Positions 20,085-59,595 are shown, counted from the first letter of the stretch. The stretch: 64,000 nt of DNA from Gammaproteobacteria bacterium (GCA_030429735.1 JAUIET010000008.1:74726-138725); one strand, 5' to 3'. Numbers and translations: made by a program. Notes: generated by a model from the letters alone, not told the origin.

Positions 20085-20120
20085 CGTTTTTTTCGGACAT
20101 TAGCGTTAATAAGGCGAATT

Positions 20121-28862: not shown

Positions 28863-28969
28863 TGGCCGGCATACTGGCACATTCTGCTCACGGCCGTTGT
28901 AAAGGCGACTTGATCAGGCAGCTGAAAGGTATAATGGAGAGTTACAGCAACATACAAGGAATCTTGGGA

Positions 28970-30109: not shown

Positions 30110-30111
30110 CG

Positions 30112-33884: not shown

Positions 33885-34618
33885 TAGTCCAGCGTACCGA
33901 ACATCCAGTCATACAAGGGTGTTATGGAGCCGTAATTGCCGTGGTGCATGTCAATGTGGTGTATATGGTGCTTGGTGGTCAGGTAATCAATCGTTTTGAA
34001 CGGAAAGAAGTCCAGATTAAATTTGGTGTGGTTGATGGTATTCAATTGAGTCCAAATGACATAAGCCAATGCGGCAACGAGCGCGTGAATGTCACCCATA
34101 ATTGCTTGCGATGCAAACAGCGCAATCATAAATATTGAAAGACCAATAAACGTTTCAGCGGGATGCACATAATGCGCATCCGACCAGGAAGGGCTGCGGG
34201 CCTGGTGATGTAGCGCATGTGCTTTACGCATAGGCATCCAGTTACCATGAAACCAGAATCGGTGAGAAAGGTAGTAGATAAAGTCGTAGACAAGCAGCAG
34301 CACTACTATGTCAACCAGGTAGCGCCACCAGGGCATCGCCGACAAGGTTAACGTGAGCGGTGCCGCGACCAGTATCAGAAACAGATGGGCTGCACCACCA
34401 ATCCGCATATTGGCTTTGGCGATCGGGCGCCATTTGGGGTTGGCCATTTTCGGTTTATCTTCTTCGCGGTTCCACTCCCGCATTCGCTGTACATCCGCGT
34501 TTCTAAACACCAGCCAACGGCCCGCTTTGGTCAGGGCAATGGTGGCTACCAACCACACAAGAGACGCGGCCCAATGGTAGTTTTCTGCAAACCAGCTGCT
34601 TATTGTGTCGATACTCAT
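33884..34618 (-). CDS. Fatty acid hydroxylase / sterol desaturase family membrane di-iron enzyme
   Basis: Histidine boxes HRFWFH, HALHH and HHIHHIDMHH, plus several hydrophobic helices. Confidence 0.8.
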   Translation of the reverse strand: MSIDTISSWFAENYHWAASLVWLVATIALTKAGRWLVFRNADVQRMREWNREEDKPKMANPKWRPIAKANMRIGGAAHLFLILVAAPLTLTLSAMPWWRYLVDIVVLLLVYDFIYYLSHRFWFHGNWMPMRKAHALHHQARSPSWSDAHYVHPAETFIGLSIFMIALFASQAIMGDIHALVAALAYVIWTQLNTINHTKFNLDFFPFKTIDYLTTKHHIHHIDMHHGNYGSITPLYDWMFGTLD

Positions 34619-34622
34619 AGTG

Positions 34623-35798
34623 TCAGTCCGCTACGCCCACAGTTCCTTGTGCAAGTTTATCATTCCAGAGTCGGTACCAGTAAGTGATCAATGGCTCGTT
34701 TCGCCCGGAAACAACACCGTCGGGTAATCCGCCAGCTGCTATGCCTCGCTGGCATTGTTCTGCAGCATGAAGGTCTTCGTCTACGAATATTCGTTCGCCA
34801 AAATCAAACGATTCGGTGGCCGCTTTGCAAAGCTGCTGGTTGCTGGCCGGATCATCACTGCCCGTGAATACACCCGAGTAATACACGGTACTGGCGCCCG
34901 CGACTGGGCCTGGTTCTGCTCGGATCATCTGTGCCGCGCCCGGAACGGCGACAATGACTGTGCCAGGGAACACCGTGTGGTTGATAGCGCCCGGAAACTC
35001 TGAAGGCCAATCAGTTTCCGGGGTGTGCGCCAGATCCAGAATAGTTTTCAAAGAGAATGCCCAGCGCGTGTGTTGGCCATAGCAATCAACCACGCCATGA
35101 CTGCTCATGATTGGCGCCAGGCTGTCACGATGCAGGTTTTCAAAATGGTAACCTTCATTGCTTAAGCCGACGATTATTTTCCAATTGGCATTCACCTCGA
35201 AACGGCGGGTATCTATGCTGTTCATCGAGGCGAAATCGAAGTTCTCCAACGCTGCTTCAATGTCGCCCAGGAAGTCATTCACGGTATGTTGAGACATTGC
35301 CGGTGTCAGTCCGACGGTGAGTAGTCCGCCGCGATCAGAAACGGGCAGTGGGGTTAAACTCGTATCTTCCTGCTCTGGATTGGCCGTTGAAAAAGCGGCA
35401 TCTCTGCGCCGCCCCTTGAGTTTGCCGTCCAGATCGTAGGTCCAGCCATGAAAAGGGCAGCTTAGTGATTTAGCACAACCGTTACCGTCAGCCACTTGCG
35501 CGCCACGGTGACGACAGGCATTGATAAATGCGCGCAATTCGCCGTCAGCATTGCGACAGATCAGCAGCGGCCTGTCCAACACCGTGACGGCCTTATAAGA
35601 GTTAGGCTGTGAGACTTCGCCGGCGAAGCCAACCACCTGCGGGGTATTGGCAAAGAACAGTTCTTTTTCGGCCTGATGACGCTCAGTATCCGTAAAACTG
35701 AGCGAGGGCTCGATATAGGGCGCATCGCTTTGATCCGTGGTATCGCTTTGCACCCGGTGCAGCAAGCGCCGGCAGAGCTCTGTCAGGTCAGCATTCAT
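34623..35798 (-). CDS. Rieske [2Fe-2S] non-heme-iron oxygenase, alpha-only type
   Basis: CRHRGAQV...CPFHGWTY and NWKIIVGLSNEGYHFENLH. Confidence 0.85.
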   Translation of the reverse strand: MNADLTELCRRLLHRVQSDTTDQSDAPYIEPSLSFTDTERHQAEKELFFANTPQVVGFAGEVSQPNSYKAVTVLDRPLLICRNADGELRAFINACRHRGAQVADGNGCAKSLSCPFHGWTYDLDGKLKGRRRDAAFSTANPEQEDTSLTPLPVSDRGGLLTVGLTPAMSQHTVNDFLGDIEAALENFDFASMNSIDTRRFEVNANWKIIVGLSNEGYHFENLHRDSLAPIMSSHGVVDCYGQHTRWAFSLKTILDLAHTPETDWPSEFPGAINHTVFPGTVIVAVPGAAQMIRAEPGPVAGASTVYYSGVFTGSDDPASNQQLCKAATESFDFGERIFVDEDLHAAEQCQRGIAAGGLPDGVVSGRNEPLITYWYRLWNDKLAQGTVGVAD

Positions 35799-45108: not shown

Positions 45109-46350
45109 ATGATTGAGCGAAAACTGGCAACAAGCATACTGGATGCGCTACAAGCATTTCCGGTTGTATACGTAAATGGGCCCCGCCAAGCTGGTAAAAG
45201 TACGCTGGTACAGAGCTTGGCACAAAATGATTGGCCCGCCGAATACGTGACATTCGACGAAGCGACTATGATGGGTGCAGCAGAGGCTAATCCAGAGAGC
45301 TTTCTACGCGCCTATCAAGATCGCCTCATTCTTGATGAGGTGCAGATGGCGCCTGCTCTCTTCCGTGCATTGAAGCTTCTTGCCGATGAAGCAAGACGTG
45401 CAGATAAAGCCAGGGCAAATGGACGCTACCTTTTAACCGGGTCGGCCAATATCATGGCTCTGCCCAAGCTCTCGGATGCGCTGGTCGGCAGAATGAGTGT
45501 TCTTACGCTCCTGCCGCTATCGGCTCTGGAAATAGCAAAGGGCGCAGGCGGCTTTCTTCCAAGCCTGATGAGTAACAGTTTTAAACCCGCCACGGTGCGT
45601 AGGAAGCACGCTTTGGTTGACGTCATCAGGCGAGCAACTTTTCCTGAAATAACAAATGATGACGACGATCGCGGTCGATGGTTTGAAAGTTATATCACCA
45701 CGATCTTACAGAGAGACGTCAGGCAGATTGCGGATATTGCTAAATTGGGAGTTCTGCCGAACCTGCTTAAAGTGCTGGCTGGCAGGGCGGGAGGACTTAT
45801 TAATGACGCCGATATTTCCCGCGCCATCGGACAAAATTCCGTGACAGCTAAAAACTATCGTATCTTGCTGCAAATGATGTTTCTGACATTTGACGTTAAA
45901 CCGTGGTATCGAAGTACGGGCAAGCGACTGGTGAAATCTCCGAAAGGATATCTCATGGACACCGCTCTTCTTTGCCATTTAGAGCAAATTGATTTGGCAA
46001 AGTCGGAACGTCAAGATCCTCACATTTTTGGGCATGTCTTTGAAAATTTTGTTGCCACTGAACTATTGAAACAACTCACTTCAAGCGAAGAAAAAGCAGA
46101 ACTCTATCATTTCAGAACCAGCGATGGGAAAGAAGTAGACTTTGTTCTGGAGCGCCGCGATGGGCGGCTTGCAGCGATTGAGGTAAAAGGACGTGACGCT
46201 GTGAGTGTTGCAGATTTCAAAGGATTGAAAGAGTTGTCCAGTTTGATAGGAGACGACTTCATTTGCGGTATCGTTCTATACCGTGGGAATAAAATCGTAC
46301 CTTTTGAGGAGAATATGTGGGCGGTGCCCGTCGACGCAATGTGGTCTTAG
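45109..46350 (+). CDS. AAA-type ATPase with DUF4143-like C-terminal domain (COG1373-type)
   Basis: 413 aa. Walker A VNGPRQAGKSTL and Walker B LILDEVQ. The C-terminal region with HVFENFVATEL...EVDFVLE is typical of this family. Confidence 0.8.
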   Translation: MIERKLATSILDALQAFPVVYVNGPRQAGKSTLVQSLAQNDWPAEYVTFDEATMMGAAEANPESFLRAYQDRLILDEVQMAPALFRALKLLADEARRADKARANGRYLLTGSANIMALPKLSDALVGRMSVLTLLPLSALEIAKGAGGFLPSLMSNSFKPATVRRKHALVDVIRRATFPEITNDDDDRGRWFESYITTILQRDVRQIADIAKLGVLPNLLKVLAGRAGGLINDADISRAIGQNSVTAKNYRILLQMMFLTFDVKPWYRSTGKRLVKSPKGYLMDTALLCHLEQIDLAKSERQDPHIFGHVFENFVATELLKQLTSSEEKAELYHFRTSDGKEVDFVLERRDGRLAAIEVKGRDAVSVADFKGLKELSSLIGDDFICGIVLYRGNKIVPFEENMWAVPVDAMWS

Positions 46351-46678
46351 TTTAAGCAGTCCCTATCAGTGTCGAAGCTGAAGTGCCAGGCGGATGAGTT
46401 TCGCATTGTAACTATCCAGTTCATAAGAGGCACTGGTAAGTGGAAACCGTCAGTAGATATTGAACCATCCTGTGAGTCGGCGCCATGTGTGTCCTATCAG
46501 CTGGCCAAATAGGGCATATCAAGGTCAGCAACCAGAGTTATCGTGTTATTTCCGTTTGCGCCTATCAGGCCAACAACATTGTCGAATACAAGTATCCTGC
46601 GCGTAAAACGCTCAGTACCCTTTGTGATCGTCGAACTGTGTATTTGTGAAATTTTTCTTTCTGGTCTAATGGTCCAAA

Positions 46679-46707
46679 TTGACGTTTATACATATTATAT
46701 GTATAAT
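46679..46707 (+). promoter_or_regulatory. Near-consensus sigma-70 promoter with overlapping palindromic operator upstream of vapB
   Basis: TTGACG (46679-46684), 17-nt spacer, TATAAT (46702-46707). The perfect palindrome tacatat-t-atatgta (46689-46703) overlaps the spacer and the -10 box. Confidence 0.6.
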
Positions 46708-46773
46708 GTGTAATGTATGCTATCCTGCCGCAAAGCTAGAGCGGTGTTGGGCTAATTGAATGAGGTGAGAACG

Positions 46774-47055
46774 ATGAGTGTTGATTTGCATGAGACTGTC
46801 TCGGCAACAGAATTAGTCCGCAACCTGTCAGTATTGATTGATAAAGTGCGAATATCCAATCGGAGCCTGTATATCACGAAGGGTAGCCAGACGGTGGCAG
46901 AATTGAGTCCGCCACCGAAGTCTGGTCTGCCAATAAGCGAATTGGGACGACTATTGGAATCTCTACCCAGACTGGACGACGATGCTGAAGCACTGTTAAC
47001 AGACATGGATGCCATTAGAACCCAAGGCGAATTGCCGGAGAACCCATGGGATTAG
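46774..47055 (+). CDS. vapB: Type II antitoxin (Phd/YefM-like fold), partner of the PIN toxin
   Basis: ATG at 46774 follows AGGTGAG. MSVDLHETVSATELVRNLSVLIDKVR...YITKGSQTVAELSP. Overlaps the toxin start by 10 nt. Confidence 0.75.
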   Translation: MSVDLHETVSATELVRNLSVLIDKVRISNRSLYITKGSQTVAELSPPPKSGLPISELGRLLESLPRLDDDAEALLTDMDAIRTQGELPENPWD

Positions 47056-47453
47056 TGATTGACACTAACGTATTCATCAATGCCGAAAATGGGCGCATTG
47101 AATTGAAGAATTTGGTGCGGTATGCCAATTATGGCGACGCTTTTATTGCGGCAGTAACGGTCTCCGAACTGCTGACGGGTGTACACATGGCCAAAACAAC
47201 CGCGATCCGTGTGCGACGCTCCGCATTTGTGGAGGGGGTACTGAGCGGTGTGCCGACTTTGGATTTCACAGAGGAGGTCGCCCGAACTTATGCGGAACTG
47301 TATGCGCATTTTTTAAGAAAACGAACAAAGCCCAGTAGCACTGTGCATGATCTTCAAATAGCGGCGACGGCCATTACGTATGGCTATGCGGTGCTGACCA
47401 GTAATATCGATGACTTTAAGAAAATACCTGGCTTGACAGTCGAATGCCTGTAA
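47046..47453 (+). CDS. vapC: PIN-domain ribonuclease toxin
   Basis: MGLVIDTNVFI (first acidic residue), TVSELL, and DLQIAATAITYGYAVLTSNIDDF. Confidence 0.8.
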   Translation: MGLVIDTNVFINAENGRIELKNLVRYANYGDAFIAAVTVSELLTGVHMAKTTAIRVRRSAFVEGVLSGVPTLDFTEEVARTYAELYAHFLRKRTKPSSTVHDLQIAATAITYGYAVLTSNIDDFKKIPGLTVECL

Positions 47454-47859: not shown

Positions 47860-48333
47860 TTAACGATCCAATATTGCTGATCCTATCGGCAACGACGTGT
47901 CAAACTTCAACTCGCGTAGCGCAATATGAGATTTGACCTGTGCAATCTGTGGGATCGCAAACATGAAATCCTCCAGAAAGCGGTCAAAACTTTCGATGCT
48001 CTCAGTGACCACGCGAAGAATAAAGTCGGCGTCACCGGTGGTGGCAAAACACTCGAGAATTTCCGGGCGTTCGGCAACCGAACGCTCGAATGAGGTGGTG
48101 TTCTCGAGAATGTGCCTCGCAAGTGTCACGTGTACAAAGGCGCATAAGCCGAACCCTGACTTCGAGCGATTTAACAGTGCGCGGTAGCCTTCAATAACGC
48201 CCGCCTGTTCCAGCGCGCGAACGCGTCGCCAGCAGCCTGCGGTGGAGATGCCTACCCGTTCTGCCAATGCCTGATTGCTGAGCCTGCCATCCCCCTGAAG
48301 TATGGCCATGATTTTTCGGTCGGTATCGTCCAT
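47860..48333 (-). CDS. Lrp/AsnC family transcriptional regulator (intact copy)
   Basis: ATG at 48333. MDDTDRKIMAILQGDGRLSNQALAERVGISTAGCWRRVRALEQAGVI (HTH) plus a RAM-type C-terminal domain. Divergent from the IOR gene. Confidence 0.85.
   Translation of the reverse strand: MDDTDRKIMAILQGDGRLSNQALAERVGISTAGCWRRVRALEQAGVIEGYRALLNRSKSGFGLCAFVHVTLARHILENTTSFERSVAERPEILECFATTGDADFILRVVTESIESFDRFLEDFMFAIPQIAQVKSHIALRELKFDTSLPIGSAILDR
47878..48093. repeat. Right direct repeat (the 3' end of the intact lrp-family gene)
   Basis: Aligns without gaps to 44520-44735 at an offset of 3,358 bp. The 130-nt core at 47930-48059 is identical. Confidence 0.85.
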
Positions 48334-48488
48334 TGGGCGCAATCTCTAGATACGAAATATAATTACATATATCTATTAGAATTGAAATAATAATACGAAA
48401 ACGCCTGATATGCGACACAAAGTGTAAGCACCTTTCAGCCAAACTGGGCTAATGTCAGCGTATAAGGTTTCTCTACAAGTGTCTGCTT

Positions 48489-51400
48489 ATGAACAGTGCG
48501 CTCCCTCCAGATCTGGACAGCTATGAACTCAAAGACCGCTTTGCCAGAGCGCAGGGGCGGGTGTTTCTCACCGGCACTCAGGCACTGGTGCGCCTGCCTT
48601 TGATCCAGCGCCAGATTGACCAGGCCAATGGGCTGAATACGGCCGGCTTTATATCGGGCTACCGTGGCTCACCACTGGGCGGCTACGACATGGAACTGTG
48701 GCGTGCCAAACAGGAACTGGCAGACAATGCCATTGAGTTTCTGCCCGCGGTAAACGAAGACCTGGCGGCCACAGCGGTTCTGGGCAGCCAGCAGGTGGAA
48801 AGCGACCCGGATCGCCAGGTAGATGGTGTGTTTGGTATCTGGTACGGCAAAGGCCCGGGTGTTGATCGTGCCGGCGACGCCTTGAAACATGGCAATGCCT
48901 ATGGCAGTTCACCACACGGTGGTGCGTTGATTATCGCGGGTGATGATCACGGCTGTGTGTCGTCCAGCATGTCGCATCAGTCGGATGTGGCGTTTATGGC
49001 GTTTTTTATGCCCACGCTGAACCCTGCCTCTGTTGCCGAATACATCGAATACGGCTTGTACGGCTTTGCAATGTCCAGATACTCGGGTTGTTGGGTGGGC
49101 TTCAAAGCCATTTCGGAAACCGTTGAAAGCGCCGCCTCGGTCAACGTGGGTGTAACCCCCACGTTTCATGTGCCCAAGGATTATCAGGCGCCGGAGTATG
49201 GCTTGCACTACCGTTGGCCAGACCTGCCTGGTCCCCAGGTTGAGGCTCGCATGGTGGCCAAGCTGGATGCGGTGCGCGCGTTTGCCAAGCGTAACCCGAT
49301 TGACAAACGTATCTACGGCATACCAGACGCGCGGTTTGGCATCATCACCACTGGCAAGGGCCATCTGGACTTGATGGAGGCGCTTAAACTGCTGGGCATA
49401 GACGAGAACCGTGCACGAGAGATAGGCATAGACATCTATAAAGTCGGCATGGTCTGGCCACTGGAAACGGAAGGTGCCAGGGCCTTTCTGCGCAATAAAA
49501 AAGAAGTACTGGTGGTGGAGGAAAAACGCGGCATCATCGAAAGTGAGTTGAAAGAATTTCTGTATGACTATCAAAGCGACAAGCCCAATCGCATGGTGGG
49601 TAAGTACGATGAAGCGGGTAATCCGCTGGTTCCGTGGACCGGAGAGCTTAGCCCGACCTTGCTCGCGCCGATTGTCGCATCGCGAATCACGCATGAATTC
49701 CCGGAGCTGAATTTTGATGAGCAACTGGAAGCGCTGGCCGCCAGGCGGGTGTCGTTTGAAGCGCCGTCGGATGTAAAGCGTACGCCGTACTTTTGCCCGG
49801 GCTGCCCACATAACACCTCTACCAAGGTGCCGGAAGGCAGCAAGGCACTGGCCGGTATTGGCTGCCACTTTATGGCGTCATGGATGAACCGCAACACCGA
49901 GTCCCTGATTCAGATGGGCGGTGAAGGTGTGAACTGGGTGAGCAAGTCAAAATTCAATGGCGGCAAGCACATCTTTCAAAACCTGGGTGAGGGCACTTAC
50001 TTCCACTCCGGGTATATGGCTATCCGTCAGGCGGTTGCGGCAAATACCAACATCACCTATAAAATTTTGTTCAACGACGCAGTCGCCATGACCGGCGGCC
50101 AGCCGGTGGACGGCACCATTACTGTGCCCGCCATCGCAAACCAGGTTCGATCAGAAGGCGTGCAGCGCATCGCAGTCGTCAGTGACGACCCGGCGAAGTA
50201 CACCAACAAAGCCCAGTTCCCACCGGCCACCAGTTTTCACGATCGATCGGAAATGGACGAGCTGCAGCGGGAACTGCGCAACATACAGGGAGTGTCTGTG
50301 CTGATTTACGATCAGGGCTGCGCGGCTGAAAAGCGCCGCATGCGAAAGCGCGGAACCTACCCCGACCCGGCAAAACGGATATTTATCAATGACGCGGTCT
50401 GTGAAGGCTGCGGTGATTGTGGTGAGCAATCCAATTGCCTGGCGATTTTTCCGCTGGATACTGAACTGGGTCGTAAACGCAAGATCGATCAGTCGTCCTG
50501 CAACAAGGACTATTCCTGCGTGAAAGGCTTTTGCCCCAGTTTTGTGACGGTGGAAGGCGGAGAATTACGGCAAACCAGGGCATTGGATACCGACGACGAA
50601 TTGAACAGCAAGGTATCGCGGCTGCCGATGCCACAGTATTCAGCGCTGGACGACAACTACAACATGCTGGTAGCCGGTATCGGTGGTACCGGTGTCGTGA
50701 CCGTCGGTGCCTTGATCACCATGGCAGCGCACCTGGAGGGCAAAGGGGCCACGGTGCTGGACTTTACCGGCTTTGCGCAAAAAGGCGGCACGGTAATCAG
50801 TCATATTCGTATAGGTGCCACGCCTGAGGCGCTCACGCAAGTGAGGATTGCCGATGGCGCCGCCGATGCCGTGGTGGCCTGCGATATTGTGGCGGGTACC
50901 GATCCACGCTCCAGCAGAGTACTGTCGGCTGGCAGAACCCGGGTGCTGGTTAACAACACCGAAGTACCGAGCGGGCAGTTCGTCCAGGACAGAAACGCCA
51001 ATATGCGCATGCAGGATCGGCTGCAACTGATTCGAGGTGCGGTCGGCAAGGAGCGGGTTGAACTGGTTGAAGCCAATCTGGCCATGGAACGACTGCTGGG
51101 CAACACCGTGTATTCCAATGTATTTCTGCTCGGCCTTGCCTGGCAACGCGGCCTGGTGCCGGTATCACACCAGGCCCTGCTGCGCGCGATCGAGTTAAAC
51201 GGGGTGAATATCGCGTTGAACCAACAGGCGTTTAACTGGGGTCGTTTGGCAGCTGAGCACCCGGAGTACCTTGACCAAGCGGCTGCACTGAACACGGCAC
51301 GACCCACACCCCACACCCTGGAAGACATTATTGAGCATCGCGCCGCGCTGCTGACAGACTACCAGAACGCAGAGTACAGCGAGCGCTATCGGTCACTGGT

Positions 51401-51983
51401 CATGAGGGTGCACCACGCCGAAGCAGGTTTGGGCACGGGTTCAATGCCGCTCACCGAAGCCGTGGCCAGATACCTGTACAAAGTGATGGCCTATAAGGAT
51501 GAGTACGAAGTTGCCCGACTGTACACCAACGGTGAGTTTGCCAAAAAGCTGGGTGATACGTTTGAAGGCCCTTATCACCTTACATTTCATATGGCCCCGC
51601 CCATATTCAATGCCGGCACCGACGAGCTGGGGCGCCCCGGAAAACGTCAGTTTGGCCCATGGATGCTCAGCGCACTGAAGCTGCTGGCACGCTTGAAGGG
51701 CTTGCGTGGCACGGCCTTTGATCTGTTCGCCTGGTCACACGATCGGCGCAAGGAGCGGAAACTGATGGATGATTACATTGCCCTGCTGGATTCATTGGCA
51801 CAGGGCCTGAATGAGCACAACCACTCAGTAGCGGTTAGCTGCGCCAGCCTGCCCGACAAAGTGCGGGGCTTTGGTCCGGTGAAGTCAGAAGCTATTGCAA
51901 GGTATTACGAAGAAAAAGTACTGCTGTTGGATCAGTTTCACGGTGAGGACAAAGTGGTTGTGGTGTTTGAGGTAAGCAACTGA
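48489..51983 (+). CDS. Indolepyruvate:ferredoxin oxidoreductase family protein (fused IorA/IorB type 2-oxoacid:ferredoxin oxidoreductase)
   Basis: 1,164 aa. TPP-binding N-terminal half and ferredoxin-like cysteine clusters CPGCPH and CEGCGDCGEQSNC...CNKDYSC.KGFCPSF. C-terminal gamma-like domain GIGGTGVVT. Confidence 0.85.
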   Translation: MNSALPPDLDSYELKDRFARAQGRVFLTGTQALVRLPLIQRQIDQANGLNTAGFISGYRGSPLGGYDMELWRAKQELADNAIEFLPAVNEDLAATAVLGSQQVESDPDRQVDGVFGIWYGKGPGVDRAGDALKHGNAYGSSPHGGALIIAGDDHGCVSSSMSHQSDVAFMAFFMPTLNPASVAEYIEYGLYGFAMSRYSGCWVGFKAISETVESAASVNVGVTPTFHVPKDYQAPEYGLHYRWPDLPGPQVEARMVAKLDAVRAFAKRNPIDKRIYGIPDARFGIITTGKGHLDLMEALKLLGIDENRAREIGIDIYKVGMVWPLETEGARAFLRNKKEVLVVEEKRGIIESELKEFLYDYQSDKPNRMVGKYDEAGNPLVPWTGELSPTLLAPIVASRITHEFPELNFDEQLEALAARRVSFEAPSDVKRTPYFCPGCPHNTSTKVPEGSKALAGIGCHFMASWMNRNTESLIQMGGEGVNWVSKSKFNGGKHIFQNLGEGTYFHSGYMAIRQAVAANTNITYKILFNDAVAMTGGQPVDGTITVPAIANQVRSEGVQRIAVVSDDPAKYTNKAQFPPATSFHDRSEMDELQRELRNIQGVSVLIYDQGCAAEKRRMRKRGTYPDPAKRIFINDAVCEGCGDCGEQSNCLAIFPLDTELGRKRKIDQSSCNKDYSCVKGFCPSFVTVEGGELRQTRALDTDDELNSKVSRLPMPQYSALDDNYNMLVAGIGGTGVVTVGALITMAAHLEGKGATVLDFTGFAQKGGTVISHIRIGATPEALTQVRIADGAADAVVACDIVAGTDPRSSRVLSAGRTRVLVNNTEVPSGQFVQDRNANMRMQDRLQLIRGAVGKERVELVEANLAMERLLGNTVYSNVFLLGLAWQRGLVPVSHQALLRAIELNGVNIALNQQAFNWGRLAAEHPEYLDQAAALNTARPTPHTLEDIIEHRAALLTDYQNAEYSERYRSLVMRVHHAEAGLGTGSMPLTEAVARYLYKVMAYKDEYEVARLYTNGEFAKKLGDTFEGPYHLTFHMAPPIFNAGTDELGRPGKRQFGPWMLSALKLLARLKGLRGTAFDLFAWSHDRRKERKLMDDYIALLDSLAQGLNEHNHSVAVSCASLPDKVRGFGPVKSEAIARYYEEKVLLLDQFHGEDKVVVVFEVSN

Positions 51984-54325: not shown

Positions 54326-54600
54326 ACGAGTTGCGAACCCACAGTGTAGGCAACCGACAATATCGAAGTCAGGCATATCATGATCCGGCCCACCGGATAA
54401 TGGCCCAGCATCACGCGGGTTAGTGGTTTACTATGACAGCTGTGATTATGCCTGCACTAAGTTTGTACATAATTTTCTTCAAACCCGTGTCAAATTCGAA
54501 TTTAATACAGTCGTTCACACTTTGTGGTGAGGCTGGCATGCTGCCGGCCAGAAGAATTGCCGCATTTTCCAAAAACTGCCGATGAGATCATTGAGTCATA

Positions 54601-57600
54601 ATGCCTAAAAAGAAGTACCCGAAATTCGCAGACAGAGTCTTGGAACTCACGAAAAATGATGCCCAATTACAGCAACATATGCCACGAGCAGACCTGTGGG
54701 AAGGGCTGGCTGACGATAGCGTGCCTCTGGCAAGCAATATTGATCGCTTACTAGCAGGCTACGGCGACCGCCCCGCGCTGGGTGAGAGAGAGTACACTCT
54801 GGAGGATACCAACGGTAGCGGTCGGCTTACTCGGCGTTACGGCCCGGGGTTCAAGACGATCTCCTATGTCGAGTTTCGTCACCGCGTTCGTTCAATTGCC
54901 TCAGCCTGGCGAGCAGACGGTCGCTTTCATGTCCGCCCGGACGAGTTCGTTTGCATGATGGGCTTTGCCGGCGTGGATTACAGCGCGCTGGACGTCGCGT
55001 GTCTGTACACGCAAACTGTGAGCGTTCCCGTTCAGGCCAATTATGGCTTTGACATGCTGCGTGGCATGTTAGCGCTGATTGAGCCGACCGTTATTGCCAC
55101 GGCCGCGCCCGACCTGGAAATGGCAGTTCGGCTTGCCGAAGCAATACCCAGCATCAAGAGCTTTATCGTGTTTGATTACGATGTTGGAGACAGCAGCAAT
55201 CTTGCCGCATGGGAGGCTTCCAAAAACGCACTCGCCGAAAAATGCCCGAACATTGCCGTGATATCGCTTGATGAGCTTGCGGAATTGGGGGATGCAGATG
55301 CCTGGGAAATGATGCCCCCGCACAGAGAGGGCGCTGAGCGCCTAACATCAATCATTCATTCCTCTGGCAGTACTGGTACACCGAAGGGCGCAATGTTACC
55401 GGAGCGCTCCGTGGTGGCTTCATGGAACGGTGTGTCGCCGGATGCGCCCGCTATTGGTATTGGCTTAGCGCCTTTGAACCATTTGATGGGTCGCTTGGTG
55501 ACGCAGGGAACCATGGGCGTTGGCGGCTTGGTTAATTTTACGCTGGCAGACGACATGTCTACGCTGATCGAAGACATTCGCGCCACCAGGCCAATTAATA
55601 TTGCGTTCGTGCCGCGTATTATAGATATGATTTATCAAGACTACCTCAATCAGGTATCGCGCCGGGCAAATGACAGCGGCATATCGGAAAATCAAGCGCG
55701 CGAAGAAATTATAATCGAGTTTCGTGGCAGCTATCTTGGCGACCGATTACTGGGCGGCAGTGTTGGCAGTGCACCGACCACCAAAGAAATGCGTGACTTC
55801 ATGATGGCTTGCTTCAATATACCATTGGTTGATGGTTACGGAAGTACGGAATCTGGTACTGGCAGAGTAACGTTCAATAATCGTGTGCTCAGACCAGGCG
55901 TTATCGACTATAAACTTCGCGATATGCCGGAGCTTGGCTACCTGACCAGCGATAAGCCTTACCCCCGCGGTGAGTTTTGCATTAAAACCAGAACACAGAT
56001 TCTTGGTTACTATAAGAACCCGGAAGCATCAGCGAAACTTTTAGATGATGAAGGGTATTATCTAAGTGGCGACATAGTCGAAGAGCGCGGACCTGATCAT
56101 GTGGTGGTTATTGACCGCTGTAACGATGTACTCAAACTGTCACAAGGTGAATATGTTGCTGTAGGGCGTCTCGGAACCATTTTCGAATCTGAAAGCGATC
56201 TTATCCAGCAAATTTATGTCTACGGCAACTCACTACGGTCTTATCTTGTGGCAACCGTAGTGCCCGATATGCAAGCCCTAACGTCAATTCTGGGTGACAC
56301 GCCTGAACCTAAAGCCATCATTGCTTTGATCCGTGAAGATTTCCAAAGAATCGCACACAGGGTTGATTTGAAGTCATTTGAAGTACCGCGCGAATTTATT
56401 CTGGAGCAAGAACCCTTTTCCGCCGAAAACGGGCTGCTAACCAGCGTCTTAAAGAAAAAGCGCCCCGCACTTAGAGAAAAATACGGCGAGCAACTGGAAG
56501 CCTTGTATGAGCAAGGCGAACAACTGCAGTCGGAGCAACTCAGTAGGCTGAAAGACCCGGACTCAACGCTCACCACAGTTGAAAAATTACGCATACTGTT
56601 AGCGAGTAATCTGGGAATCCAAGAGGAGGATGTTGACGACGACAAAACCTATCATGAACATGGTGGCGATTCTCTGGGGTCTGTCACGTTCGCAATGGCC
56701 ATTGCAAATGTGTTCGGAACCGAGATTGCATCCAATGATATTCTCAGCCCGGCTGGTGGAATCAATAGTTGGGTAAAAACGCTAAGCAGTGGCTCTGATA
56801 AAAAGCTTTCGAACTTCACAGACGTTCATGGCCAACGCACGGATGAGATTTTCGCCGCTGATTTAAGGCTGGAAAAATTTTTGCCGTCAGATGTTCTGGC
56901 AAGTGCATCCTCTTTGCCTGCCGCTGCATCCGGCGAGCCACGTACTGTTTTCCTGACTGGCGCCAATGGATTTCTTGGTCGTGTCGTGTGTCTGGAATGG
57001 TTGAAGCAACTGTCAACGCACGGAGGCAGGCTGATTTGTTTGATCAGGGCAAGCGACGATCTGGCCGCACTTTCGCGATTAAGCGATGCGTTTGATAGCG
57101 CTGGTGAGGAAATGTCATCAGCATTCAATAGTTTTAAGGGTTACCTTGAAGTAGTAGCCGGCGACTTTGGGCAACCGTATTTAGGCTTAACACAGGAGCG
57201 GTTCGAGTCCCTGGCCAATGAAGTTGATGTGGTCAGTCACGGTGGTGCGCTGGTCAATCACGTGCTGGACTACCAGTCTTTGTTTGTGCCGAATGTGGGT
57301 GGCGTGGCCGAGATTATCCGCTTAGCGCTTACGGGGAAAAAGAAACCGATTGATTTCGTGTCGAGTGTGGCCGCTTCTTCACATTTGCAATTTAACACCG
57401 GTGGCACCGAAACCGCCGAGCTGGCTGATTCGGCAAAGCTGAACGACCGCTATGCAAACGGTTATGGCGCCAGCAAGTGGGCGGGTGAGGTGTTACTGCG
57501 TGAAGCACACCAGGGTTTCGGCTTGCCCATCCGAATTTTTCGTGGTGACATGATGCTGGCGCACCGTGAGATAGCGGGTGTGATCAACAGCGACGATATG

Positions 57601-59211
57601 TTTACCCGCCTGCTGTACAGTGTGATTAAAACCGGTGTGGCGCCGAAGTCGTTTTATGAACCCAACCCTGACGGAAGCCGTGCACTGGTGCCTTATGACG
57701 GGCTGCCGGTAAACGCAGTTGCCGCGTCTGTAGTTAATGGCGGGCGGTTTTTTAGTGAGGGTAAAACGGTATTCTGCATCGACAACGCTTTCACTGATTT
57801 AAGCAATTCGCTTGACGCGTTTGTGGATTGGATCATTGATGCGGGCTATGACATCCAGCGCCTCGAAGCATATGAAGATTGGTTTTCGCGTTTCAAACGC
57901 CGAATGACGGCATTACCTGAAGAGGAAAAGAAACAAAGCGCTCTTGCCTTGCTGAAGGCGTTTGAGCGACCTAACTCGTTCGTGCCGTTCAGAGGTGAAT
58001 CCAGCAATTTCCAGCTGCTTGTTTCAAAAATGGGTATTGATGCTTCTGAGCTACAGTTGGATGCAGGGTTCATTGTTAAGTGCTTGAATGATATGGCTCT
58101 GCACGGCTTGATTGAAAAGCCGGGTAAACTGCCTGTTCCTAAAGCGCTAAATAAACCCGAAACATCGGTAACCCAGGCTTATGGGGTTACTTCGAGATCG
58201 TCTGATGTTACTGCGATGAACATAGAGCGTCGCTTGCCTGGTGCCAAAGACGTTGCGATTGATATCGAGTACTGTGGTGTGTGCCATTCAGATATTCACT
58301 TTGCGCACAATGATTGGGGAGCTACCCAATATCCGCTTGTTCCTGGCCATGAAATTATTGGTCGTGTGGTTGCTGTTGGCAAAGAAGTTGCTGAATTCAG
58401 TGTTGGCGAGCGGGTAGCAGTCGGTTGCATGGTTGATTCCTGCAGAAGCTGTGCAAGTTGCGAAGACGGTCTTGAGCAATATTGTGATGGCGGACTGGTG
58501 ATGACGTACAACAGCTATGATCACCGACATCAGAATGCGCTTACCTTTGGCGGTTACTCCAATGACATTGTTGTCGATAAAGACTTTGTGATGTCTGTGC
58601 CCGAAAACCTTGACCCTGCAGGTGCCGCACCACTTTTATGTGCAGGTATCACCACCTGGTCGCCCTTGCGCGAATGGGGTGTGAAAGAAGGCATGCGGGT
58701 GGGTGTGGTAGGGCTTGGTGGTCTTGGCCACATGGCCGTCAAATTTTCTGCAGCCCTCGGCGCGCACACGGTTTTGATTTCAACGTCGCGCGAGAAAGCG
58801 GATGATGCCCGAAGATTGGGCGCCGCCGATGTGTTGATTTCCAAAGATCTGGACGCCATGCGCGATGCGAAAGAGAGCTTCGATTTCATACTGGACACAG
58901 TGCCAGTGCATCATGATGTTGATGACTACCTTCGACTGTTGAAGCGCGATGCGACGCTTTGCCTGGTGGGCGCTTTAGAACCACTGGAGTTTCACTCAGG
59001 ACGCGTAGCGATGCGGCGAAAGAAAATCAGCGGCTCATCCATTGGCTCAATCAAAGAAACCAGAGATATGTTAGCGTTCTGTGGTGAAAACAACCTCACG
59101 GCCGATATTGAATTGATCAAACCCGATGATATTCAACATGCATGGAATAGGGTGCAACGCAGTGACGTCAAATATCGGTTTGTGATTGATATGCAAGGGG
59201 CTAAGCAATAA
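54601..59211 (+). CDS. Four-domain fusion: carboxylic-acid-reductase-like adenylation domain, carrier (PCP/ACP) domain, thioester reductase domain and YahK-type Zn alcohol dehydrogenase
   Basis: 1,536-aa uninterrupted ORF. SSGSTGTPKG (aa 254-263), GGDSL with Ser691, TGANGFLG (from aa ~786) and YGASK. The C-terminal ~350 aa carry GVCHSD, GHEIIG, CRSCASCEDGLEQYC and GLGGLGH, and are collinear with E. coli YahK as I recall that sequence. Confidence 0.85.
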   Translation: MPKKKYPKFADRVLELTKNDAQLQQHMPRADLWEGLADDSVPLASNIDRLLAGYGDRPALGEREYTLEDTNGSGRLTRRYGPGFKTISYVEFRHRVRSIASAWRADGRFHVRPDEFVCMMGFAGVDYSALDVACLYTQTVSVPVQANYGFDMLRGMLALIEPTVIATAAPDLEMAVRLAEAIPSIKSFIVFDYDVGDSSNLAAWEASKNALAEKCPNIAVISLDELAELGDADAWEMMPPHREGAERLTSIIHSSGSTGTPKGAMLPERSVVASWNGVSPDAPAIGIGLAPLNHLMGRLVTQGTMGVGGLVNFTLADDMSTLIEDIRATRPINIAFVPRIIDMIYQDYLNQVSRRANDSGISENQAREEIIIEFRGSYLGDRLLGGSVGSAPTTKEMRDFMMACFNIPLVDGYGSTESGTGRVTFNNRVLRPGVIDYKLRDMPELGYLTSDKPYPRGEFCIKTRTQILGYYKNPEASAKLLDDEGYYLSGDIVEERGPDHVVVIDRCNDVLKLSQGEYVAVGRLGTIFESESDLIQQIYVYGNSLRSYLVATVVPDMQALTSILGDTPEPKAIIALIREDFQRIAHRVDLKSFEVPREFILEQEPFSAENGLLTSVLKKKRPALREKYGEQLEALYEQGEQLQSEQLSRLKDPDSTLTTVEKLRILLASNLGIQEEDVDDDKTYHEHGGDSLGSVTFAMAIANVFGTEIASNDILSPAGGINSWVKTLSSGSDKKLSNFTDVHGQRTDEIFAADLRLEKFLPSDVLASASSLPAAASGEPRTVFLTGANGFLGRVVCLEWLKQLSTHGGRLICLIRASDDLAALSRLSDAFDSAGEEMSSAFNSFKGYLEVVAGDFGQPYLGLTQERFESLANEVDVVSHGGALVNHVLDYQSLFVPNVGGVAEIIRLALTGKKKPIDFVSSVAASSHLQFNTGGTETAELADSAKLNDRYANGYGASKWAGEVLLREAHQGFGLPIRIFRGDMMLAHREIAGVINSDDMFTRLLYSVIKTGVAPKSFYEPNPDGSRALVPYDGLPVNAVAASVVNGGRFFSEGKTVFCIDNAFTDLSNSLDAFVDWIIDAGYDIQRLEAYEDWFSRFKRRMTALPEEEKKQSALALLKAFERPNSFVPFRGESSNFQLLVSKMGIDASELQLDAGFIVKCLNDMALHGLIEKPGKLPVPKALNKPETSVTQAYGVTSRSSDVTAMNIERRLPGAKDVAIDIEYCGVCHSDIHFAHNDWGATQYPLVPGHEIIGRVVAVGKEVAEFSVGERVAVGCMVDSCRSCASCEDGLEQYCDGGLVMTYNSYDHRHQNALTFGGYSNDIVVDKDFVMSVPENLDPAGAAPLLCAGITTWSPLREWGVKEGMRVGVVGLGGLGHMAVKFSAALGAHTVLISTSREKADDARRLGAADVLISKDLDAMRDAKESFDFILDTVPVHHDVDDYLRLLKRDATLCLVGALEPLEFHSGRVAMRRKKISGSSIGSIKETRDMLAFCGENNLTADIELIKPDDIQHAWNRVQRSDVKYRFVIDMQGAKQ

Positions 59212-59595
59212 CCGAAGTCTGTCGCAGAGCCTCGCGTTGTATCTCGTCAATACCAAGAGACTCCAAAACCACATCAGTATGCTGCCCATTATGGAACGCA
59301 TTTACGGAACAAGAGTGACCGGAACTAACTCCACAGGACAAACCTAGCCTCAAAACTTTGCCGTTTTGCACAGCTTGGTGGGCACTGGGTCTTGTACTAT
59401 ATCTCATCAGGCTGCGTGCAGCTAAGCGATTCAGCGTAGACTCTGCGCGGTCGGGCTACATCGAGGAATAAACGTAGTCATAGAACTGCGACAATGCTCG
59501 TGAGCCGTAAGGCAATTAGGGGAAAACATTCACCGAAACGGGTGGGTTTGGAAGTGAAGTAAACGTGCTGGTCACTATTCTACTCCTTGGCTATT

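What the first reader, a model, noticed from the sequence alone, without database searches (positions are those of the whole stretch)
54601..59211. Natural fusion of a complete carboxylic acid reductase (A-PCP-R) to a complete Zn alcohol dehydrogenase in one 1,536-aa ORF
One uninterrupted ORF concatenates four modules.
- Module 1 is an ANL adenylation domain. Its N-terminus resembles Nocardia/Mycobacterium-type carboxylic acid reductases (CARs). It carries SSGSTGTPKG at nt 55360-55389.
- Module 2 is a carrier domain with GGDSL. The predicted phosphopantetheinyl serine is Ser691 (nt 56671-56673).
- Module 3 is a thioester-reductase SDR domain with TGANGFLG (from nt ~56950) and YGASK.
- A proline/lysine-rich linker (EKPGKLPVPKALNKPETS) follows.
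- Module 4 is a full YahK/cinnamyl-alcohol-dehydrogenase-type ADH at nt ~58174-59208. It has the catalytic-Zn motifs GVCHSD and GHEIIG, the structural-Zn motif CRSCASCEDGLEQYC, and the dinucleotide loop GLGGLGH.

Characterised CARs end after the reductase domain and release an aldehyde. Separate host aldehyde reductases of the YahK/YjgB class then reduce it. Here the second step is covalently attached. This predicts a single polypeptide that converts a free carboxylic acid to the alcohol using ATP and 2 NAD(P)H, possibly with aldehyde channelling. I am not aware of a characterised A-PCP-R-ADH enzyme. No phosphopantetheinyl transferase gene is visible in the window.
Basis: partly seen in the sequence, partly recalled or inferred. 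Interest (0 to 1): 0.8.

Follow-up and report, generated by a model that had tools for sequence, protein, structure and literature searches.

The report
Carboxylic acid reductase fused to ADH
This gene encodes one long protein that joins a complete carboxylic acid reductase to a complete zinc alcohol dehydrogenase; the join is real, is conserved in uncultured bacteria and arose at least twice, so the protein very probably converts a free acid all the way to an alcohol, though nobody has tested this.

Summary
ORF 54601-59211 (+) encodes 1,536 aa with an adenylation domain, a carrier domain (Ser691), a thioester-reductase domain and a full YahK-type zinc alcohol dehydrogenase (ADH), joined by a roughly 21-residue linker.

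It is not an assembly artefact:
- The identical protein occurs in two independent read-set assemblies.
- About 35 protein clusters (at 90% identity) share the architecture, and all catalytic residues are invariant in the 28 aligned.
- The ADH domain is under strong purifying selection (dN/dS 0.06); the linker is not (0.40).

The fusion arose at least twice. Pseudomonadales-type lineages carry a YahK-type ADH. A Bacteroidota (Saprospiraceae) lineage carries an Ahr/YjgB-type ADH that is only about 32% identical.

A second YahK-type clade has a sister lineage with separate, adjacent, in-frame CAR (carboxylic acid reductase) and ADH genes. Reading through that stop codon would give a linker of exactly the fused length.

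Most likely mechanism: acid + ATP + 2 NADPH gives a primary alcohol through a transient aldehyde. The substrate is unknown, and channelling is neither supported nor excluded.

The closest characterised analogue is eukaryotic ATRR (A-T-R1-R2), whose second reductase belongs to a different fold family. My verdict is a new variant of a known kind, uncharacterised, of moderate to high interest.

The parts
54601..59211 (+). Whole gene: 1,536-aa CAR-ADH fusion protein (A-T-R-linker-MDR), stop codon included
   Evidence: uninterrupted ORF. (identical protein P0001 plus 28 full-length homologous clusters). (two independent assemblies).
54326..54600 (+). 275-nt upstream intergenic region. The gene has its own upstream space after the TonB-dependent receptor gene; no promoter is demonstrated.
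   Evidence: Only a weak consensus match (9 of 12) at 54354-54381. The N-terminus MxxKKxPKY is conserved across the family.
54601..56550 (+). Adenylation (ANL) domain, about residues 1-650, of type I CAR kind
   Evidence: Pfam AMP-binding, residues 84-471. NF041592 matches end to end. PDB 6oz1 and 5msc align from residue ~10 to ~637.
55360..55389 (+). ANL core motif SSGSTGTPKG (S254-G263)
   Evidence: All but one position invariant in 28 fused proteins.
56581..56775 (+). Carrier (T/PCP) domain, residues 661-725
   Evidence: Pfam PP-binding, 39 bits against a cut-off of 20.8.
56671..56673 (+). Ser691 in GGDSL, the predicted phosphopantetheine attachment site
   Evidence: G688-L692 invariant.
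56944..58113 (+). Thioester reductase (SDR-type R) domain, residues 782-1171. It includes TGANGFLG (786-793), Y955/K959 and D983.
   Evidence: TIGR01746, 232 bits against a cut-off of 213. NAD_binding_4. Alignment to the R domains of 5msc and 5msp.
57463..57477 (+). YGASK: catalytic Tyr955 and Lys959 of the R domain
   Evidence: Invariant in the family. Aligns to YANGYGNSKW of the solved CARs.
57547..57549 (+). Asp983, equivalent to Asp998 of Segniliparus rugosus CAR (motif RSDMIL; FRGDMML here)
   Evidence: Alignment to chain 5msp_A puts D998 opposite D983. Invariant in the family. The functional meaning of D998 (two-electron limit) is recalled from Gahloth et al. 2017 and was not re-read here.
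58114..58176 (+). Interdomain linker, residues 1172-1192 (EKPGKLPVPKALNKPETSVTQ)
   Evidence: Variable in sequence but nearly constant in length within its clade. dN/dS 0.40 against 0.05-0.11 for the domains. Low pLDDT in the model.
58177..59208 (+). YahK-type zinc medium-chain alcohol dehydrogenase / aldehyde reductase domain, residues 1193-1536
   Evidence: Pfam ADH_N and ADH_zinc_N. Best PDB hit is YahK 1uuf, 364 bits. dN/dS 0.06.
58282..58284 (+). Cys1228 (GVCHSD), a catalytic-zinc ligand. The other ligands are His1250 (nt 58348-58350) and Cys1347 (nt 58639-58641), with Glu1251 adjacent.
   Evidence: Invariant in all 28 fused proteins. Aligned to the same residues of YahK.
58441..58485 (+). 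Structural-zinc lobe: Cys1281, Cys1284, Cys1287 and Cys1295
   Evidence: All four invariant. Aligned to YahK CKHCEECEDGLENYC.
58711..58731 (+). Dinucleotide-binding loop GLGGLGH (1371-1377). It is followed by the STSxxK stretch (S1396, K1399), predicted to bind the 2'-phosphate of NADPH.
   Evidence: Invariant or nearly invariant. Conserved with YahK TTSEAK. The NADPH assignment is inference from the cinnamyl-alcohol-dehydrogenase family.
59212..59595 (.). 384-nt downstream intergenic region before a convergent PhyH-family gene, so the fusion gene stands alone

Best explanation
The gene encodes a self-contained, bifunctional carboxylic acid to primary alcohol reductase.

Proposed steps (all chemistry below is inferred from homology, not shown):
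1. The adenylation domain activates a free carboxylic acid with ATP.
2. The acyl group moves onto the phosphopantetheine arm on Ser691 of the carrier domain. A PPTase encoded elsewhere in the genome must install that arm.
3. The SDR-type (short-chain dehydrogenase/reductase) R domain (Tyr955/Lys959, NADPH) cleaves the thioester reductively and stops at the aldehyde.
4. The tethered YahK-type zinc MDR domain (catalytic zinc on Cys1228/His1250/Cys1347, NADPH) reduces the aldehyde to the alcohol.

Net reaction: RCOOH + ATP + 2 NADPH gives RCH2OH + AMP + PPi + 2 NADP+.

The flexible linker of about 21 residues keeps the second active site close. The reactive aldehyde is therefore consumed locally rather than accumulating. 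Proximity is all the data support; a dedicated tunnel is not indicated.

The fusion most probably arose by loss of the stop codon between adjacent CAR and aldehyde-reductase genes.

The substrate is unknown. My working guess, with low confidence, is an aliphatic or fatty-type acid.

What is shown: domain presence, intact catalytic residues, conservation, purifying selection, at least two independent origins, and the split-gene relative.
For: - Domains: all four are detected above their thresholds. The CAR part aligns end to end with the curated CAR model and with the three solved CARs.
- Residues: every catalytic or cofactor residue of all four modules is invariant across 28 fused proteins down to 40% identity.
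- Selection: dN/dS against the 86%-identical homologue is A 0.05, T 0.10, R 0.11, ADH 0.06 and linker 0.40. The ADH is the best-conserved domain within the clade.
- Two-electron limit: D983, the equivalent of SrCAR D998, is invariant.
- Independent origins: the window's clade (A) and clade B carry a YahK-type ADH (best PDB hit 1uuf at 364 bits, against 197 for 7bu2). Clade C carries an Ahr/YjgB-type ADH. It passes NF047908 at 508 bits against a cut-off of 470; its best PDB hits are 6c49 and 7bu2 at about 390-400 bits, against 217 for 1uuf. Clade C ADH domains are only about 32-35% identical to those of A and B.
- Tree: on the CAR part the three fused clades never group together (0 of 100 bootstraps). 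Clades B and C each group with unfused CARs in 100 of 100.
- Split relative: the unfused CAR P0113 is sister to clade B. A separate ADH gene follows it after 33 nt and is 73% identical to the clade B ADH domain, against 64% or less for any other ADH compared.
- Same frame, same length: that stop and start are in one frame, and read-through would give 19 residues between LGLI and KPVAAYAA. This is exactly the linker length of the fused P0020.
- Other partners: unfused CARs nearest the window's clade are followed 12-51 nt downstream by an SDR gene, so a CAR plus downstream reductase is a recurring pairing.
- Engineered precedent: M. marinum CAR plus Sfp plus E. coli Ahr makes fatty alcohols (PMC7744569).
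- Natural precedent: ATRR shows that an A-T-R1-R2 protein performs exactly this two-step reduction.
Against: - No biochemical or expression data exist. All members come from metagenomes or MAGs (metagenome-assembled genomes), none from a cultured strain.
- The CAR part scores 1162 bits, below NCBI's equivalog cut-off of 1300. The ADH part scores below the Ahr cut-off (287 against 470). Exact isofunctionality with the characterised enzymes is therefore not guaranteed.
- CAR R domains can reduce some aldehydes on their own (PMC10168641), so the ADH domain may not be strictly required.
- No PPTase gene lies in the window, and no operon is conserved around the gene. Context therefore says little about substrate.
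- The AlphaFold didomain model gives no confident interdomain geometry (pTM 0.61).
Confidence: 0.75

Rival explanations
1. The fusion is an assembly, sequencing or gene-calling artefact. In reality two adjacent genes (CAR and ADH) have been joined by an error in the linker.
For: Adjacent separate CAR and ADH genes do exist in a relative, and they are in the same frame. One cluster member is split into 806-aa and 724-aa pieces on a single contig. Reads could not be mapped here.
Against: - The identical 1,536-aa protein is assembled independently from two runs and also sits on an NCBI contig.
- About 35 clusters from four data sources and many assemblers keep one ORF across 40-100% identity.
- The linker keeps its length but not its sequence, and it carries no stop in any of the 28 aligned proteins.
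- The split copy breaks inside the R domain, not at the junction.
Confidence: 0.02
2. The ADH domain does not act on the CAR product. It may be a dimerisation or scaffold module. It may run oxidatively (alcohol to aldehyde). Or it may reduce a different carbonyl of the substrate, for example the keto group of an oxo-acid.
For: MDR enzymes of this class are normally dimers (general knowledge), so dimerisation is a likely side effect. Zinc ADHs are reversible in vitro. The substrate is unknown, and no contact between the R and ADH domains is predicted.
Against: - A pure scaffold would not keep all seven zinc ligands, the GxGGxG loop and the STSxxK stretch invariant at dN/dS 0.06.
- Both ADH subfamilies recruited independently (YahK and Ahr) are the NADPH-dependent aldehyde reductases known to consume CAR products in E. 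coli.
- Other relatives pair the CAR with a downstream SDR instead. That fits 'any aldehyde reductase will do' better than a specific second-site chemistry.
Confidence: 0.1
3. It is a dedicated tailoring or loading enzyme of a specialised-metabolite pathway (NRPS-like, that is nonribosomal-peptide-synthetase-like). It would make a specific amino alcohol or polyketide alcohol rather than act as a general acid-to-alcohol reductase.
For: - A-T-R enzymes are common in natural-product clusters.
- The unfused sister of clade C (P0106) sits next to a PKS (polyketide synthase) gene.
- A PKS fragment ending in carrier-R-ADH exists (P0229).
Against: - Five fused homologues and the window have six different neighbourhoods with no biosynthetic core genes.
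- The protein matches the type I CAR model end to end, far better than any NRPS model.
- Where neighbours recur, they are acyl-CoA dehydrogenases, enoyl-CoA hydratases, CoA transferases, acyl-CoA ligases, MFS transporters and TonB receptors.
Confidence: 0.1

Closest known systems
Type I bacterial carboxylic acid reductases (Nocardia iowensis CAR, Mycobacterium marinum CAR, Segniliparus rugosus CAR; PDB 5msc, 5mso, 5msp; NCBIfam NF041592; 'FadD9')
   Same: The A-T-R order is the same. Alignment is end to end over residues ~8-1171 (E down to 5e-267). The ANL motif, the pantetheine serine, the R-domain Tyr/Lys and the SrCAR-D998-equivalent Asp are all shared. About 40% identity by tblastn to Nocardia and Mycobacterium CARs.
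   Different: The characterised CARs end after the R domain (about 1,170-1,190 aa) and release the aldehyde. This protein continues for 365 more residues into a zinc ADH. It scores 1162 bits, below the 1300-bit equivalog cut-off. It comes from uncultured Pseudomonadales-type bacteria, not Actinomycetota.
E. coli YahK (PDB 1uuf) and the cinnamyl/sinapyl alcohol dehydrogenase branch of zinc MDRs
   Same: Best solved-structure match for residues 1191-1531 (364 bits). The catalytic and structural zinc ligands, the GxGGxG loop and the T/S-T-S-x-x-K stretch are identical in kind. Free-standing bacterial YahK-like proteins are up to 60% identical.
   Different: YahK is a free-standing protein of about 350 aa. 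Here the domain is the C-terminal module of a 1,536-aa protein.
E. coli Ahr/YjgB (NCBIfam NF047908; PDB 7bu2 and 7bu3 as recalled)
   Same: Same superfamily and the same presumed role, an NADPH aldehyde reductase acting on CAR products. A parallel fused lineage in Bacteroidota carries a domain that passes this model (508 bits against a cut-off of 470).
   Different: The window's domain does not pass this model (287 against 470) and is only about 32% identical to the Ahr-type fused domains.
ATRR, the NRPS-like glycine betaine reductase of fungi, protists and invertebrates (A-T-R1-R2; Hai, Huang and Tang; bioRxiv 10.1101/559534)
   Same: Same logic in one polypeptide. A-T-R1 makes the aldehyde and a fused C-terminal aldehyde reductase makes the alcohol. 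Mutagenesis of each reductase domain demonstrated this for ATRR.
   Different: ATRR's second reductase is a YdfG-like SDR, not a zinc MDR. The authors report atrr genes as exclusive to eukaryotes. Its substrate is glycine betaine, recognised through cation-pi contacts. The fusions are non-homologous in the fourth domain and so are convergent.
Engineered CAR + Sfp + Ahr pathway for fatty alcohols (Akhtar et al. 2013, as summarised in PMC7744569)
   Same: The same two catalysts act in sequence on free fatty acids.
   Different: The engineered route uses separate proteins from different organisms, put together by design. Here the pair is covalently linked by evolution.
Alcohol-forming fatty acyl-CoA/ACP reductases (for example Marinobacter Maqu_2220, 'MaFAR')
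   Same: One protein performs a four-electron reduction of an activated acyl group to a fatty alcohol, in marine Gammaproteobacteria (PMC7744569).
   Different: These enzymes start from acyl-CoA or acyl-ACP. They have no adenylation or carrier domain and no zinc MDR domain.

Membership tests
Type I carboxylic acid reductase (EC 1.2.1.30; NF041592) | A-T-R domain order with full-length similarity to characterised CARs | tested here: met
   The model is matched over positions 2-1160 of 1160 by residues 11-1171. PDB 5msc, 5msp and 5mso align end to end.
Type I carboxylic acid reductase (EC 1.2.1.30; NF041592) | Score at or above NCBI's curated equivalog cut-off (1300 bits) | tested here: not met
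   1162 bits. Fused relatives score 1235 and 1261, also below the cut-off. It is best called CAR-like or a CAR-family member, not a proven equivalog.
Type I carboxylic acid reductase (EC 1.2.1.30; NF041592) | ANL core motif, pantetheinylated serine in GGDSL, and R-domain TGxxGxLG with the catalytic Tyr/Lys | tested here: met
   S254-G263, S691, T786-G793, Y955 and K959 are present and invariant in the family.
Type I carboxylic acid reductase (EC 1.2.1.30; NF041592) | [quoted passage not shown] | not testable with these tools
   This needs enzyme assays. No PPTase gene is in the window.
Zinc-dependent MDR alcohol dehydrogenase, YahK / cinnamyl-ADH branch | GroES-like and Rossmann domains, with catalytic zinc ligands (Cys, His, Cys) and a four-Cys structural zinc site | tested here: met
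   ADH_N and ADH_zinc_N. C1228, H1250 and C1347, plus C1281, C1284, C1287 and C1295, are invariant and aligned to YahK.
Zinc-dependent MDR alcohol dehydrogenase, YahK / cinnamyl-ADH branch | Closest solved relative is YahK rather than another MDR branch | tested here: met
   1uuf scores 364 bits, cinnamyl/sinapyl ADHs 320-330, and 7bu2 (Ahr-like) 197.
Zinc-dependent MDR alcohol dehydrogenase, YahK / cinnamyl-ADH branch | NADPH-dependent aldehyde reduction | not testable with these tools
   Only the GLGGLGH loop and the STSxxK stretch can be read from the sequence. Cofactor preference and direction are inferred.
Aldehyde reductase Ahr/YjgB (NF047908) | Score at or above the curated cut-off (470 bits) | tested here: not met
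   287 bits for the window protein. The Bacteroidota fused lineage does meet it, with 508 bits.
ATRR-type A-T-R1-R2 acid-to-alcohol reductases | A-T-R followed by a fused C-terminal aldehyde reductase | tested here: met
   Architecture shown.
ATRR-type A-T-R1-R2 acid-to-alcohol reductases | R2 is a YdfG-like short-chain dehydrogenase; eukaryotic distribution; glycine betaine specificity | tested here: not met
   The fourth domain here is a zinc MDR. The hosts are bacteria. Specificity was not tested. It works like ATRR but is not a member of that family.

The most novel reading that the evidence does not exclude
CAR-MDR fusions would form a previously unrecognised class of bacterial one-protein acid-to-alcohol reductases that evolved convergently at least twice. 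In this reading the tethered ADH, probably dimerising the whole enzyme, captures the aldehyde directly at or near the R-domain exit. That would be true kinetic channelling, so free aldehyde never equilibrates with the cytoplasm. The result would be a natural, aldehyde-free four-electron carboxylate reductase. It could have a defined physiological role, for example fatty alcohol supply for wax esters or ether lipids in marine bacteria.
Probability: 0.2. Interest if true: 0.8.

Novelty: new variant of a known kind. Interest (0 to 1): 0.62.

Why it matters
CARs are among the most used enzymes for making aldehydes and, with helper reductases, alcohols from bio-based acids. Controlling what happens to the toxic aldehyde is the central practical problem.

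A natural single polypeptide that carries out both reductions would be three things:
- a ready-made biocatalyst;
- a natural experiment on whether covalent proximity gives channelling;
- a template for linker design in engineered CAR-ADH fusions.

On the evolutionary side, evolution joined CARs to the same two aldehyde reductase classes (YahK and Ahr/YjgB) that are known to consume CAR products in E. coli. The in-frame split pair is an unusually clear example of a gene fusion whose linker appears to derive from an intergenic spacer.

On the physiological side, it points to an unexplored acid-to-alcohol route in uncultured marine Pseudomonadales-type bacteria and in Saprospiraceae.

Tried and rejected
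1. Conserved operon. Six fused loci (the window/L001, L003, L004, L005, L006, L007) have unrelated neighbours, so context gives no firm substrate. Acyl-CoA dehydrogenase, enoyl-CoA hydratase, CoA-transferase and acyl-CoA ligase genes recur near several loci. TonB receptors also recur (the window). Both gene types are abundant in these genomes, so I treat them as weak hints.

2. L022. This Pseudomonadales MAG holds the closest free-standing ADH. It looked as if it might carry an adjacent CAR (a 1,153-aa ORF), but that ORF is a hybrid histidine kinase.

3. L025 (Acidovorax MAG). The match over residues 1060-1536 suggested an R-ADH fusion, but the locus has two separate ORFs.

4. Nocardia loci L009 and L015. 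The CAR and an MDR ADH lie within about 6 kb but are separate genes about 2 kb apart. I did not pursue this.

5. Unfused relatives of clade C. P0311 has no adjacent ADH. P0312 could not be located. P0106 sits beside a PKS gene. No pre-fusion state was found for clade C or for the window's clade A. Relatives of clade A have an SDR downstream instead.

6. AlphaFold2 model of the R-linker-ADH part. Mean pLDDT 80.5, pTM 0.61, with low confidence in the linker and the zinc lobe. The alignment was shallow (27 sequences). The model is not usable to judge whether the active sites face each other, so I ran no fold search on it.

7. Rfam scan of the window at gathering thresholds. No hits.

8. Literature. 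Eight searches found no natural CAR-MDR fusion. Gahloth et al. 2017 (PMC5563451) is not held, so the role of SrCAR D998 rests on my memory.

9. GTDB genome scan. It found only one fused representative (L008), so the taxonomic spread is under-sampled.

10. Direction of the clade B event. An in-frame split pair of equal length is formally compatible with fission of a fused ancestor. I prefer fusion because unfused CARs are the outgroup state and arrival of an ADH as a neighbouring gene is mechanistically simpler. The data do not prove it.

Full report
**1. Observation**

The window has one uninterrupted ORF at 54601..59211 on the + strand, 1,536 codons. These are SSGSTGTPKG (residues 254-263), GGDSL with Ser691, TGANGFLG (from T786), YGASK (Y955-K959) and the Pro/Lys-rich linker (1172-1189). 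The ADH motifs GVCHSD, GHEIIG, CRSCASCEDGLEQYC and GLGGLGH are also present.

Domain searches agree with the four-module reading:
- Pfam finds AMP-binding (84-471), PP-binding (661-725), NAD_binding_4 (785-1041), ADH_N (1215-1335) and ADH_zinc_N (1374-1494), each above its gathering score.
- NCBIfam's carboxylic acid reductase model NF041592 is matched over positions 2-1160 of 1160 by residues 11-1171. The score is 1162 bits, just under the 1300-bit equivalog cut-off.
- The thioester-reductase model TIGR01746 passes its cut-off.
- The Ahr aldehyde reductase model covers residues 1191-1530 at 287 bits, below its cut-off of 470.
- Against solved structures, the three full-length CARs (5msc, 5msp, 5mso) align end to end (E down to 5e-267). 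The C-terminal 345 residues align best with E. coli YahK (1uuf, 364 bits), then with plant cinnamyl, sinapyl and geraniol dehydrogenases.

**2. The fusion is real**

- The identical protein, with identical neighbours, was assembled independently from two sequencing runs (ERR3428548 and ERR3428547). It is also on an NCBI contig of 215 kb.
- A search of 5.8 billion protein clusters returned 28 further full-length clusters with the same six Pfam domains. They are 87% down to 40% identical and come from NCBI MAGs, JGI, ENA and Logan. A second search added six more.
- In an alignment of 28 fused proteins, every catalytic or cofactor residue of all four modules is invariant. These are the ANL motif, G688-L692 around the pantetheine serine, the R-domain glycine-rich loop, Y955 and K959, the three catalytic-zinc ligands (C1228, H1250, C1347), the four structural-zinc cysteines and the GxGGxG loop.
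- Codon-level comparison with the 86%-identical homologue gives dN/dS of 0.05 (A), 0.10 (T), 0.11 (R), 0.06 (ADH) and 0.40 (linker). Across the clade the ADH is the best-conserved domain.
- The linker varies freely in sequence but keeps its length.
- The base composition shows no discontinuity at the junction.

An artefact or a decaying appendage is therefore excluded for practical purposes. I could not map reads.

**3. Surroundings**

The gene stands alone. There are 275 nt of intergenic DNA upstream, after a TonB-dependent receptor gene. There are 384 nt downstream, before a convergent PhyH-family gene.

Further neighbours are:
- upstream, an AsnC-type regulator and a 1,164-aa POR/DUF6537 oxidoreductase;
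- downstream, a BetI-type TetR regulator, a DSBA-like protein and an APH-family kinase.

No PPTase domain occurs in any window ORF of 150 aa or more, and no Sfp-type motif occurs in the six-frame translation. The PPTase must be encoded elsewhere.

Five other fused loci have entirely different neighbours, so there is no conserved operon. Genes of acyl-CoA metabolism recur near several loci. This is a weak hint toward aliphatic or fatty substrates.

**4. Evolution**

On the CAR part, a neighbour-joining tree of 118 sequences places the fused proteins in three clades:

| Clade | Members | Bootstrap result (of 100) |
|---|---|---|
| A | the window protein, P0001-P0019 | monophyletic in 100 |
| B | P0020, P0021 | groups with unfused P0105/P0113 in 100 |
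| C | P0022-P0029 | groups with unfused P0106 in 100 |

A+B and A+B+C appear in 0 of 100 bootstraps.

The ADH domains tell the same story:
- Clades A and B are YahK-type. They are 62% identical to each other and 56-59% on average to free-standing YahK-like ADHs.
- Clade C is only 32-35% identical to A and B. It is a bona fide Ahr/YjgB-type domain. It scores 508 bits on NF047908 against a cut-off of 470. Its best PDB hits are 6c49 and 7bu2 at about 390-400 bits, against 217 for YahK.
- One clade C member is labelled Saprospiraceae, and its unfused relatives are labelled Chitinophagales or Bacteroidota.
- Clade A members are labelled Pseudomonadales or Pseudomonadota MAGs. One 72%-identical copy is in a MAG labelled Burkholderiaceae.

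CARs have therefore been fused to zinc aldehyde reductases at least twice, and probably three times.

**5. A caught intermediate**

The unfused CAR P0113 is the sister of clade B. It is followed after a 33-nt spacer by a separate 351-aa MDR gene. That gene is 73% identical to the clade B ADH domain, and no other ADH compared exceeds 64%.

The CAR stop codon and the ADH start codon are in the same frame. Reading through would give 19 residues between the conserved LGLI and KPVAAYAA. This is exactly the linker length in the fused P0020.

The simplest reading is that stop-codon loss between adjacent operon genes produced the fusion, with the linker descended from the intergenic spacer. Fission of a fused ancestor is formally possible, but I consider it less likely.

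Unfused CARs closest to clade A are instead followed 12-51 nt downstream by an SDR gene, with a divergent MFS transporter upstream. 'CAR plus a downstream carbonyl reductase' is thus a recurrent unit in these bacteria, with different reductase folds filling the second role.

**6. Mechanism**

From established CAR chemistry and the intact residues, I propose the following steps, all inferred:
1. The A domain adenylates a free acid.
2. The acyl group is carried as a thioester on the pantetheine of Ser691.
3. The R domain reduces it with NADPH to the aldehyde.
4. The tethered YahK-type domain reduces the aldehyde with NADPH to the primary alcohol.

The R domain keeps Asp983, which aligns with Asp998 of S. 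rugosus CAR and is invariant in the family. From memory of Gahloth et al. 2017 (not re-readable here), that residue enforces the two-electron stop. The ATRR preprint also states that CAR R domains perform a strict two-electron reduction. Another paper, however, shows measurable aldehyde reduction by CAR R domains (PMC10168641).

The STSxxK stretch after the Rossmann loop is shared with YahK. By analogy with the cinnamyl-ADH family, it suggests NADPH use and therefore the reductive direction.

An AlphaFold2 model of residues 740-1536 folds both domains (mean pLDDT 80.5). Its pTM is 0.61 and the region around residues 1170-1209 has low confidence. A flexible tether is plausible. A fixed channel is neither supported nor excluded.

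**7. Comparison with the known**

- The CAR part is a type I CAR relative.
- The ADH part is a YahK relative.
- The closest characterised whole-protein analogue is ATRR. This is an A-T-R1-R2 enzyme that reduces glycine betaine to choline by two sequential two-electron steps. Its R2 is a YdfG-like SDR, and its authors describe the gene as exclusive to eukaryotes. The present protein works like ATRR but is not a member of that family, because its fourth domain has a different fold and a separate origin.
- The engineered route M. marinum CAR + Sfp + E. coli Ahr (PMC7744569) is the synthetic counterpart. Clade C is its covalent natural version.
- Eight literature searches found no report of a natural CAR-MDR fusion. 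The library is incomplete, so this is absence of evidence only.
- In 1.84 billion 50%-identity representatives, the window's clade collapses to a single representative. Only a few other R-plus-MDR combinations appear among the best 150 hits. The architecture is rare.

**8. Verdict**

The function is predicted with good but untested confidence (about 0.75). The substrate and any channelling remain open.

It is a new variant of a known kind. The concept is known from ATRR and from engineering. The bacterial MDR-type fusion, its convergent origins and the in-frame split intermediate are new as far as I can tell.

Noticed in passing
L089 4494-9128 (JGI 3300061608, Ga0597496_001313): An unfused CAR (P0113) is followed after 33 nt by a separate YahK-type ADH gene in the same reading frame. 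An MFS transporter lies upstream and a TonB receptor downstream. Reading through the stop would reproduce the 19-residue linker of the fused clade B proteins.
   Followed up: yes
L090 6001-10593 and L091 6001-10602: The unfused CARs nearest the window's clade (P0067, P0036) are each followed 12-51 nt downstream by a ~321-aa short-chain dehydrogenase gene and preceded by a divergent MFS transporter. This is a CAR plus SDR pairing reminiscent of eukaryotic ATRR, but as two genes.
   Followed up: partly
Proteins P0229, P0170, P0122 (Pfam): Other rare combinations exist. P0229 is a PKS fragment ending in ketosynthase-carrier-R-ADH. P0170 is an 855-aa R-ADH protein without A or T domains (possibly a fragment). 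P0122 is a tandem ADH-ADH protein.
   Followed up: partly
L008 (MAG labelled Burkholderiaceae, JASGIS010000001.1, 6.68-Mb contig): This is the only fused copy found among GTDB species representatives. It is 72% identical overall (82% in the ADH domain) to the window protein, whose other close relatives are labelled Pseudomonadales. That suggests horizontal transfer or a labelling issue.
   Followed up: no
Cluster of P0011: P0279 (806 aa) and P0280 (724 aa) on one 22,065-bp contig: One member of a fused cluster is split into two pieces that add up to about 1,530 aa. The break is inside the R domain, so this is probably a frameshift, sequencing error or pseudogene, not a domain-boundary split.
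   Followed up: no
window 46756-47453 (+) and 45109-46350 (+): A small overlapping gene pair looks like a toxin-antitoxin module. It consists of a 99-aa protein with no Pfam hit followed by a 135-aa PIN-domain (VapC-like) protein. An AAA_14/DUF4143 ATPase gene lies just upstream, and a ~400-nt stretch (46350-46750) has only short ORFs. An AAA_14/DUF4143 gene also lies upstream of the fused gene in L006.
   Followed up: partly
window 7721-21098: A dense island of putative amine or quaternary-amine catabolism genes. It holds three Rieske oxygenase alpha subunits (7721-8908, 10303-11559, 18948-20084). It also has a class III aminotransferase, a GcvT-like aminomethyltransferase, two flavin amine oxidases, an amidohydrolase, a BetI-type TetR regulator and an FAA hydrolase. 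A TonB receptor lies at 4473-6845.
   Followed up: no
window 47860-51983: An AsnC/Lrp-type regulator is divergent from a 1,164-aa fused oxidoreductase (POR plus DUF6537, indolepyruvate/2-oxoacid ferredoxin oxidoreductase-like). This lies just upstream of the TonB receptor and the CAR-ADH gene. The same arrangement is in the two independent assemblies L001 and L002 but not in other fused loci.
   Followed up: partly
window 33195-35798 (-): Three consecutive genes: a Rieske oxygenase alpha subunit, a fatty acid hydroxylase-family protein and an EthD-domain protein. Two acyl-CoA dehydrogenases lie nearby (28820-31314). This may be a lipid or sterol-type oxidation module.
   Followed up: no
window 1447-3438 (+): A 663-aa protein combines multiple TPR repeats with a C-terminal sulfotransferase domain. 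Another sulfotransferase gene lies just beyond the window end in L001 (16953-18098).
   Followed up: no
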